Assembly: GCA_964016885.1 (NCBI GenBank)
Contig: OZ024742.1
Coordinates: 267,964,001-268,028,000, forward strand
Direction of reading: 5' to 3'
Source of the DNA: Eledone cirrhosa
Taxonomy: Eukaryota
Length of the DNA: 64,000 nt
Made by a program: the position numbers and the translations under genes. The notes under the pieces were generated by a model. The model saw nothing but the letters and a program-made list of their open reading frames with translations, had not been told where the DNA came from and made no database searches. Below, piece by piece: positions 55,290 through 55,650 of the stretch (its first letter is position 1; every line of letters begins with the position of its first letter).

Positions 55290-55650
55290 TAGAAAGTGAG
55301 GTTTTTTTTACAAAATGAAAAATAACCGAGGTGTCCTACACGAGTGGAAGTATAAAGAAAAAGGGATGAAATCAAAAATGCAACTGAAGTCTTATTTTTT
55401 TAAAAATATATATATTTATTTGGTTCCTTTACCGGTTTCGCAGTTCTTCTGCTTTTCAAAAGGTGAGTTGAGATGGAGGGTCTGTGGTTTTTCTCACATG
55501 TGAGAAAAACCACAGACCCTCCATCTCAACTCACCTTTTGAAAAGCAGAAGAACTGCGAAACCGGTAAAGGAACCAAATAAATATATATATTTTAAAAAA
55601 AAATAAGACTTCAGTTGCATTTTCGATTTCATCCCTTTTTCTTTATATAT
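55290..55650. mobile_element. Palindromic mini-element with a hammerhead on each strand, copy 2
   Basis: Near-perfect ~150-bp arms with no spacer (ctcaca|tgtgag at 55498/55499); embedded in (TA)n. Confidence 0.85.
55534..55571 (+). ncRNA. Minimal type I hammerhead, U3-A8 core (mirror copy at 55426-55463, minus)
   Basis: cctt TTGAAAA gcag-aagaa-ctgc GAA a-ccgg-t a aagg; all helices perfect, GUA site. Confidence 0.8.

What the first reader, a model, noticed from the sequence alone, without database searches (positions are those of the whole stretch)
55290..55650. ~350-bp palindromic mobile element with a hammerhead ribozyme on both strands
Seen: two copies (42861-43215, 55290-55650) lie in (TA)n. 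Each is a ~60-bp unique end plus a ~300-bp palindrome folding at the same point (ctcaca/tgtgag). Each arm holds a minimal type I HHR (cctt UUGAAAA gcag-aagaa-cugc GAA accggu a aagg), so a transcript of either strand carries one. No ORF. Known: PLEs carry minimal HHRs with palindromic helix III that cleave as dimers, and retrozymes are non-autonomous HHR elements, normally in direct tandem. Inference: a non-autonomous fold-back HHR element with rod-like ambisense geometry, probably mobilised by a PLE RT/GIY-YIG. I know of no described family like it but cannot search.
Basis: partly seen in the sequence, partly recalled or inferred. Interest (0 to 1): 0.9.

Follow-up and report, generated by a model that had tools for sequence, protein, structure and literature searches.

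The report
Mirror-image stump of a Neptune retrotransposon
This hairpin is one of well over a thousand short mirror-image stumps left by an abundant, protein-coding jumping gene of the Penelope-like class, not a free-standing ribozyme element; the places where such stumps begin likely mark the start of the parent's RNA and, less often, the spot where its built-in RNA scissors cut.

Summary
The palindrome and its two hammerheads (HHR) are real at 55290-55647. The 42861 copy is 87% identical, with both HHRs damaged and a centre 2 nt different.

The 'fixed-centre non-autonomous element' fails. The arm is the last ~210 nt of a 4.7-kb autonomous Neptune-type Penelope-like element (PLE) with open RT and GIY-YIG frames. 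The unique end is the PLE 'tail'. The HHR motif has 11,280 exact hits. Arms run from ~100 nt to several kb. Only 168 of 1,439 short fold-backs have this exact centre, on at least five parent haplotypes. A full palindromic transcript buries both HHRs. The layout, opposite-strand HHR pairs and U3-A8 core are published (PMC8557442, PMC4209133, PMC3846280).

What remains of interest: 38 of 100 arms start 201-216 nt from the 3' end, 30 nt below a TATA box. A smaller peak sits at the HHR cut site (4 of 100; 12 of 48). Both priming sites are TATA motifs. This suggests twin priming and in vivo cleavage. The scan noted the same reading earlier on other DNA.

The parts
55290..55350 (-). PLE 'tail': the last 61 nt of the parent unit, present on one arm only; lies between the two inferred RT start sites
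   Evidence: Matches the end of full-length parent units. In 25 of 25 loci holding the ORF start it is followed by ATATATA and then the ORF leader. 53 of 55 joined pairs are tail + tailless.
55290..55499 (-). Tail-bearing arm = 5'-truncated 3' end (pLTR) of the Neptune-type parent, starting ~211 nt from the 3' end
   Evidence: 98.6% identical over 213 nt to the end of the full-length unit L380
55498..55647 (+). Tailless inverted arm, same start, ending at the TATA of site 62
   Evidence: 97.4% to the parent; 47 of 53 tailless arms end at site 62
55498..55499 (.). Junction: 2-nt AT microhomology shared by both arms
   Evidence: Sequence against the parent context CCAGATGTGAG; one of at least 18 junction types among the first 50 listed (counted by eye)
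55534..55571 (+). Minimal type I hammerhead, U3-A8 core, palindromic helix III, predicted cut after 55567
   Evidence: dimer model -21.1 kcal/mol against cofold minimum -22.5
55426..55463 (-). Mirror hammerhead, predicted cut between 55430 and 55429
55165..55289 (.). (TA)n target, left
   Evidence: 30 of 30 best-matching loci have (TA)n on both sides
55644..55665 (.). (TA)n target, right
42861..43211 (.). Older independent stump of the same family; 87% identical, older haplotype in both arms, centre 2 nt longer, both HHRs damaged

Best explanation
The hairpin is two head-to-head, 5'-truncated copies of the 3' end (pLTR) of an autonomous Neptune-type Penelope-like retrotransposon, likely made anew in one insertion event and likely a dead end.

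Shown: the parent is a 4,688-bp unit with ORF1, an RT + CX4CxxC + GIY-YIG frame, a ~1.2-kb 3'UTR, the HHR and a 61-nt tail. Insertions form a size continuum of tail arm + tailless arm in (TA)n. Arm 3' ends fall at two fixed sites, both TATA motifs. Arm 5' ends peak 30 nt below a TATAAAA box.

Inferred: the enzyme nicks both strands of a (TA)n target. Each nick anneals to one TATA site of the RNA (site 1 or site 62) and primes its own cDNA (twin priming). When priming is at the upstream pLTR of an uncleaved transcript, both cDNAs run off at the RNA 5' end after ~150 and ~210 nt and are joined by blunt or microhomology repair, giving this palindrome. A minority run off at the HHR cut. The stump lacks the TATA box and its own hairpin buries the HHRs, so it would not be recopied as a unit.
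For: Parent: open 743-775-aa RT/GIY-YIG frame (Pfam GIY-YIG above cutoff, RVT_1 just below); 950 exact hits of a 35-nt EN motif; kb-scale versions of the same layout in L157 and L159.

Continuum: of 100 position-ordered arms, 38 start at 201-216 (22 at 212-214), 27 beyond 300, 28 at 90-190. 3' ends: 58 at the tail end, 39 at site 62, 3 elsewhere. TATAAAA begins at 243.

Independent priming: 53 of 55 joined pairs are tail + tailless; the tail arm is longer by more than 10 nt in 10, the tailless arm in 9, and they are within 10 nt in 34.

One source per event: arms agree at subfamily sites, and 23 rare variants are shared by both arms against 0.47 in shuffles (max 6) among 109 fold-backs.

Recurrent origin: 168 of 1,439 short fold-backs have this centre, on at least 5 haplotypes among 15 pattern-picked loci. 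No asymmetric variant is shared by more than 2 of 41 copies.

Precedent: an Anolis PLE protein nicks and extends both strands, starts RT at two internal sites that bound the tail, and uses uncleaved RNA (PMC11167929, parts 1-2 of 4 read). The D. virilis Penelope promoter and TSS lie in the pLTR (PMC2377424, passages).
Against: No RNA data: no RNA holder was listed, so the TSS rests on a TATA/Inr-like motif and the truncation peak only. The D. virilis Penelope promoter is TATA-less (PMC2377424).

34 of 53 pairs have near-equal arms, some far from the peak (317/317, 236/232, 129/129), which fold-back self-priming would also give. Shared rare variants could come from later gene conversion between arms.

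7 of 15 exact-centre loci carry the youngest haplotype, so a small amplification of that unit is not excluded. The position-ordered samples cover only the first ~44 Mb of contig C1. TSDs cannot be read in (TA)n.
Confidence: 0.8

Rival explanations
1. Same parent and same dead-end status, but the second arm is made by fold-back self-priming of the first cDNA (or on an antisense template) rather than by a second target-primed RT.
For: 34 of 53 pairs have arms within 10 nt of each other; both arms share rare variants; self-priming was proposed for PLE palindromic junctions (PMC3846280, Discussion passage).
Against: Either arm can be the longer one by more than 10 nt (10 and 9 of 53), and 47 of 53 tailless arms stop at the TATA of site 62. 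Copying one arm from the other does not predict this. The T/A tract differs between arms in 60 of 78.
Confidence: 0.15
2. One reading: a self-propagating non-autonomous fold-back HHR element (retrozyme-like, ambisense rod) with a fixed centre, mobilised as a unit.
For: The 40 best hits are full-length at 98-100%; the centre was readable and the same in 28 of the 30 loci read, one with a 1-nt deletion; 168 exact-centre loci; 7 of 15 on one haplotype.
Against: Those hits were chosen by similarity to the query. The exact centre is 12% of short fold-backs and not the commonest (5 against 13 of the first 50 listed, by eye). It lies on at least 5 haplotypes. There is no inherited arm asymmetry. The TATA box at 243 is absent and HHR stems have probability 0.0 in the full transcript. 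The element is not a direct tandem.
Confidence: 0.04
3. The 201-216 peak is an RT pause or a microhomology hot spot, not the RNA 5' end; the 141 peak is an AT-microhomology effect, not ribozyme cleavage.
For: No transcript data. The junction region offers AT, GA and TG microhomologies. Position 141 begins with AA next to (TA)n targets, and 139-143 are all raised.
Against: The peak lies exactly 30 nt below TATAAAA at an Inr-like CCA(+1)GAT and also occurs in single arms joined to (TA)n. 0 of 24 upstream pLTRs of full-length copies stop there, whereas a sequence-encoded pause should act on them too. Other A-starting positions in 144-168 hold about one arm each.
Confidence: 0.2

Closest known systems
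EN+ Penelope-like element insertions with inverted pLTR and optional tail (Adineta vaga Pen2a/Pen3a, PMC3846280; general scheme PMC8557442 Fig. 2 legend; D. virilis Penelope, PMC2377424)
   Same: Head-to-head inverted 5'-truncated copy, palindromic junction, tail at one end, partial tandems forming a variable upstream pLTR, HHR in the pLTR.
   Different: Tail is 61 nt rather than 30-40; more than 1,400 body-less short palindromes; a sharp 5' truncation peak below a TATA box; both priming sites are TATA motifs matching the target.
Neptune clade of PLEs (PMC8557442)
   Same: C-terminal GIY-YIG, CX2-5CxxC linker (CGRSNCGTC), DKG motif, (TA)n targeting; linker spacing like the Neptune1_Nv row and unlike the Nematis rows of that paper's supplement (compared by eye).
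   Different: Coding region is split into a ~400-aa ORF1 and a -1 overlapping RT/EN frame at a T TTT TTA heptamer, while the paper describes a single ORF for canonical EN+ PLEs. Its Fig. 1 legend mentions an optional frameshifted ORF1 without naming the clade, and I could not see the figure.
Minimal PLE hammerheads of Schistosoma mansoni Cercyon and other metazoans (PMC4209133)
   Same: Type I, palindromic helix III suited to dimers, U3-A8 core variant, pairs 100-700 bp apart on opposite strands ascribed to truncated PLEs.
   Different: Here helix II is 4 bp with no extra base after A9, the motif is highly homogeneous (11,280 exact hits), and truncation points give indirect evidence of cleavage in vivo.
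Anolis Poseidon PAc in vitro system (PMC11167929)
   Same: Two internal RT start sites bounding the tail, both strands nicked and extended, uncleaved RNA the main template.
   Different: PAc primes at RNA sites not homologous to the cut DNA and has its HHR and tail overlapping the ORF start. Here both sites are TATA, complementary to the (TA)n target, and the ORF starts after the tail.
Non-LTR retrozymes (bioRxiv 10.64898/2026.07.22.740005, part 1 of 5 and passages read)
   Same: Non-coding, type I HHR, derived from PLE pLTRs.
   Different: Retrozymes are direct tandem repeats of a fixed unit; this is an inverted pair with variable ends and no sign of unit propagation.

Membership tests
EN+ Penelope-like element (parent) | RT with C-terminal GIY-YIG endonuclease linked to this terminus | tested here: met
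   L158, L379-L381; window arm 98.6% to the unit end
EN+ Penelope-like element (parent) | Partial tandem forming an upstream pLTR of variable length | tested here: met
   24 of 25 loci with the ORF start have an upstream pLTR, 56 to at least 1600 nt
EN+ Penelope-like element (parent) | Inverted 5'-truncated copy and a tail at one end | tested here: met
   53 of 55 joined pairs
EN+ Penelope-like element (parent) | Hammerhead in the pLTR | tested here: met
EN+ Penelope-like element (parent) | Single ORF | tested here: not met
   ORF1 (409 codons stop to stop) open in 7 of 10 long loci and overlapping the RT frame in -1; both frames open in 5 of 10; heptamer intact in 9 of 10. Bears on the parent's coding layout, not on its class.
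Neptune clade | CX2-5CxxC linker between RT and EN | tested here: met
   CGRSNCGTC in the translation; the motif is shared with Nematis (PMC8557442)
Neptune clade | Microsatellite (TA)n targeting | tested here: met
   30 of 30 loci
Neptune clade | RT phylogeny grouping with Neptune rather than Nematis | not tested
Non-LTR retrozyme | Direct tandem repeats with an HHR in each unit | tested here: not met
   Window copies and most sampled loci are inverted pairs or single arms
Non-LTR retrozyme | Circular RNA monomer | not testable with these tools
   No RNA holder listed
   168 of 1,439; at least 18 junction types in 50; at least 5 haplotypes
Active hammerhead ribozyme | Self-cleavage at the GUA | tested here: inconclusive
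   Core intact, dimer fold within 1.4 kcal/mol of the minimum; excess of arm starts at the cut site; no assay

The most novel reading that the evidence does not exclude
The family's stumps are a genomic record of the PLE replication cycle in vivo: twin priming at two TATA sites that pair with the (TA)n target, run-off at the transcription start (38 of 100 arms), and run-off at the hammerhead cut (4 of 100; 12 of 48). The upstream pLTRs of full-length copies ignore the start site (0 of 24), as expected if they are copied from a ribozyme-cut, circularised RNA. That would be in vivo evidence that a metazoan PLE hammerhead cleaves and that circles template full-length insertions.
Probability: 0.35. 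Interest if true: 0.65.

Novelty: new member of a known kind. Interest (0 to 1): 0.33.

Why it matters
As an object it is ordinary: a truncated PLE insertion of a published shape. The value is in the family.

The origin of PLE inverted/tail structures, the regeneration of the pLTR and the role of the hammerhead are named as open questions (PMC8557442 Discussion passages; PMC2377424 Discussion passage). PMC11167929 found no RNA-seq reads ending at the HHR cut.

This young family has open coding frames, thousands of near-identical ends and three exact predictions: TSS at A213, cut at 141, priming at sites 1 and 62. It makes those questions testable by a genome-wide junction census, 5' RACE and the existing in vitro assay. 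The frameshifted ORF1 of the parent is a further lead.

Tried and rejected
Searches that gave nothing usable:
- Rfam scan found no HHR family match; Rfam missing this minimal variant is no evidence against it.
- The repeat finder on the window was swamped by microsatellites.
- A DNA search with the 63-bp unique end returned no candidates; the tool skips common words, so this is uninformative.
- No RNA holder was listed; no evidence either way on expression.
- Contigs of four other coded organisms hold pieces of the terminus, at high depth only in X7; the low-depth cases were not interpreted.
- RAD-seq reads sample few loci and skip the TA/T-A stretch over the cut site, so they could not test position 141.
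- The ORF-linked haplotype regex printed nothing. The stem I index was off by one and was redone.

Ideas rejected:
- The adjacent PLE fragment at 41578-42762 as the parent: only 26-37% protein identity and no DNA match.
- The HHR cut as the main fold point: 53 fold-backs near it against 1,439 near the upstream peak.
- The viroid-like ambisense reading: a perfect palindrome has the same sequence on both strands and buries both HHRs.

Literature searches: hammerhead + Penelope-like + inverted; hammerhead + octopus (22, irrelevant hits); Neptune/Penelope/retrotransposon/pLTR (41); Penelope + octopus genome (61); Penelope + hammerhead + circular RNA + truncated + cleavage site (63); Penelope + pseudo-LTR + promoter + transcription start (66); Penelope + twin priming + inverted (74); Neptune + frameshift + ORF1 (76). 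No listing in these described truncation peaks at a PLE TSS or HHR cut. I read only six papers in part, most subscription papers and Repbase/Dfam were not searchable, and the preprint's supplements were not seen, so absence from print is not established.

Full report
Positions such as 62, 141 or 213 count back from the 3' end of the parent unit (reference: natural copy L211).

1. Observation. The + strand at 55290-55647 holds a 61-nt unique end and a 297-bp palindrome with 98% arm identity, between (TA)62 and (TA)11. A generic hammerhead scan of the whole window found exactly two hits, 55534 (+) and 55463 (-). Each is stem I CCUU/AAGG, core UUGAAAA (U3-A8), stem II GCAG/CUGC, GAA, palindromic helix III ACCGGU, and A17. 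The second copy (42861-43211) is 87% identical, its centre has two extra bases, and both its HHRs are damaged. Rfam gave no HHR family.

2. The first search misleads. A DNA search of the 3.0-Gb own genome scored 40 of 1,295 candidates; all 40 were near full-length at 98-100%. The 30 loci read all lie in (TA)n, with the same centre in the 28 where it could be read; two of them (L029, L030) share flanks. This looks like a fixed family, but the hits were ranked by likeness to the query.

3. Unranked sampling shows a continuum. The 34-nt HHR pattern has 11,280 exact matches, control 0. Loci taken in chromosome order show single arms, short palindromes with many different centres, and arms running far upstream. 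A motif downstream of the HHR has 7,600 matches; all 100 listed sites were recovered. Their 5' ends: 6 at 90-110, 8 at 111-130, 11 at 131-150, 0 at 151-170, 3 at 171-190, 3 at 191-200, 38 at 201-216, 4 at 217-300 and 27 beyond 300. Their 3' ends: 58 at the tail end, 39 at site 62, 3 elsewhere. 70 had a head-to-head partner within 3.5 kb. Twenty evenly spaced 10-kb regions held 3 arms in 2 regions, both loci with long arms.

4. The parent. Upstream sequence of L061 led to a GIY-YIG C-terminus with 950 exact hits. L158 has an open 743-aa RT + GIY-YIG frame. L157 and L159 are kb-scale versions of the window layout, a tail arm and a tailless arm diverging. L380 holds a complete 4,688-bp unit between two tail ends, with ORF1 and a 775-codon RT/EN frame. 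The window arm is 98.6% identical to its last 213 nt. The CX4CxxC linker, DKG motif and (TA)n target fit Neptune; the linker spacing matches the Neptune1_Nv row better than the Nematis rows in the supplement of PMC8557442 (by eye; no tree).

5. The exact centre is recurrent. 1,439 loci fold within about 15 nt of this region; 168 have the window's exact junction. Among the first 50 listed I count by eye at least 18 junction types, 13 of the commonest and 5 of the window type. Fifteen pattern-picked loci of the window type carry at least five parent haplotypes, seven of them the youngest, and the same haplotypes occur with other junctions. In 41 such copies (30 picked by similarity) no arm-specific variant occurs in more than two; power is low because the copies are young. 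The junction is explained by two arms starting at 211 and sharing AT.

6. How the arms are made. Of 55 directly joined pairs, 53 are tail + tailless. The tail arm is longer by more than 10 nt in 10, the tailless arm in 9, and 34 are within 10 nt; 47 of 53 tailless arms end at site 62 (pairs whose long arms did not align in one piece are missed). Both arms of a locus agree at subfamily sites and share 23 rare variants against 0.47 in shuffles, with 157 one-arm variants; mismatch is 1.8% within and 4.5% between loci. Site 62 reads TTTATA and site 1 reads CTAATATATA in full-length copies, so both can pair with a nicked (TA)n. PMC11167929 (parts 1-2 of 4) shows an Anolis PLE protein nicking and extending both strands, starting at two internal sites that bound the tail, on uncleaved RNA. 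I infer twin priming; fold-back self-priming (PMC3846280, passages) remains possible for equal-armed cases.

7. The two 5' peaks. TATAAAA begins at 243 and the modal starts are 212-214 (22 of 100), at an Inr-like CCAGAT. I infer run-off at the TSS, in line with pLTR-located start sites of other PLEs (PMC2377424, PMC8557442, passages), though Penelope's own promoter is TATA-less. Read depth in three other individuals also drops there, and loose ends join (TA)n at 213, but RAD-seq samples few loci. The predicted HHR cut leaves a 5' end at 141. Four of 100 arms start exactly there (Poisson p about 1e-4 on my rough background). 55 arms genome-wide start at 141 or 140 behind five mismatching bases; no matched control pattern was run. 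Among TA-anchored junctions, the first 100 of 695 overlapping rows collapse by eye to 49 sites (one out of range dropped): 12 of 48 at 141, 15 at 139, 140, 142 or 143, and 21 over 144-168. A script check on the 18 arms in the fetched loci gave 6 at 141. The gap pattern favours short arms and A/T microhomology blurs 140-143, so this is suggestive only. Folds near the cut are 27 times rarer than near the TSS peak (53 against 1,439), so most templates are uncleaved.

8. Full-length copies. Of 40 loci with the N-terminal region, 25 retain the ORF start and 24 of these have a measurable upstream pLTR of 56 to at least 1600 nt; 16 exceed 243 and none ends at 201-216 (0.62^24 is about 1e-5). They cannot be simple copies of a linear RNA starting at 213. 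A circular template after HHR cleavage (proposed in PMC4209133, parts 1-2 of 4), template jumping, or read-through multimeric transcripts would each explain it; not distinguished here.

9. Can the palindrome act as a ribozyme element? In a full transcript of either strand the antisense arm comes first, the fold is about -248 kcal/mol, and stems I and II have probability 0.0. In a single arm stem II forms (0.72-0.86) but stem I rarely (0.03-0.07). A two-molecule active fold is 1.4 kcal/mol above the cofold minimum, as expected for PLE minimal HHRs. The stump lacks the TATA box. I infer it is dead on arrival.

10. Comparison with the known. Inverted 5'-truncated copy plus one-sided tail (PMC8557442, passages and supplement rows), head-to-head palindromic junctions (PMC3846280, passages), and opposite-strand min-HHR pairs with a U3-A8 variant (PMC4209133) are all in print. 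It is not a retrozyme by the tandem criterion (bioRxiv 10.64898/2026.07.22.740005, part 1 and passages). An octopus repeat annotation (PMC13282606, passages) lists active Penelope-like families but has no word on palindromes or ribozymes; the host group is my recall-based guess, untested. Earlier AI notes of this scan reached the same reading on other DNA, seven in other genomes and one elsewhere in this genome; a sequence look-up found no look-alike. I consulted them after forming my reading and do not count them as support.

11. Verdict. Observation largely right, interpretation as a new self-propagating ambisense element wrong. New member of a known kind; interest 0.33, carried by the testable clues to PLE replication and HHR activity.

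Noticed in passing
L380:2853-6316 (also L377, L379, L381-L384): The parent has a ~400-aa ORF1 with no significant Pfam match, overlapping the RT/EN frame in -1 at a T TTT TTA heptamer (intact in 9 of 10 long loci) followed by a weak hairpin: a likely programmed frameshift in an EN+ PLE, usually described as single-ORF.
   Followed up: partly
window:55393-55405 and 55590-55604; many loci: The T-run/A-run downstream of the HHR keeps a near-constant total length while the T/A boundary shifts, and differs between the two arms in 60 of 78 loci. Unexplained.
   Followed up: partly
window:41578-42762 (-): 5'-truncated RT + GIY-YIG fragment of a different PLE family (26-37% identity to the parent protein) sharing the (CA)n(TA)n run with the 42861 stump.
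   Followed up: partly
window:44631-45874 (-), 47279-47770 (-), 59889-60428 (-), 61393-62537 (-): Fragments that look like another PLE type (FDVSMGATDSAEV motif; assignment recalled), with direct repeats 43260/46399 and 44128/47248 and inverted repeats 57983-58341/59259-59617 suggesting tandem and inverted PLE structures.
   Followed up: no
window:33917-35411 and 49826-50892: Other long inverted-repeat pairs (275 nt at 97%; 250-269 nt at 96-97%), possibly fold-back insertions of other families.
   Followed up: no
window:32214-32335: A 122-bp near-perfect palindrome centred on a short (TA)n; a similar end sequence appears beside L064.
   Followed up: no
window:8678-9471: Tandem array with a 173-bp unit, about 4-5 copies.
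   Followed up: no
window:4854-4930, 25263-25440, 35446-35623, 54894-55071: Dispersed ~180-bp repeat, four copies, resembling a cephalopod SINE by recall only.
   Followed up: no
L158:6782-9141, L157:1799-2952: The parent's 3'UTR holds a ~310-370-bp block that expands in tandem in some copies, so UTR length varies.
   Followed up: no
rows at G000:C1:201019488, C1:348959949, C20:24670690: Fold-backs starting at or one base from the HHR cut carry foreign filler sequence between the arms, palindromic or nearly so.
   Followed up: no
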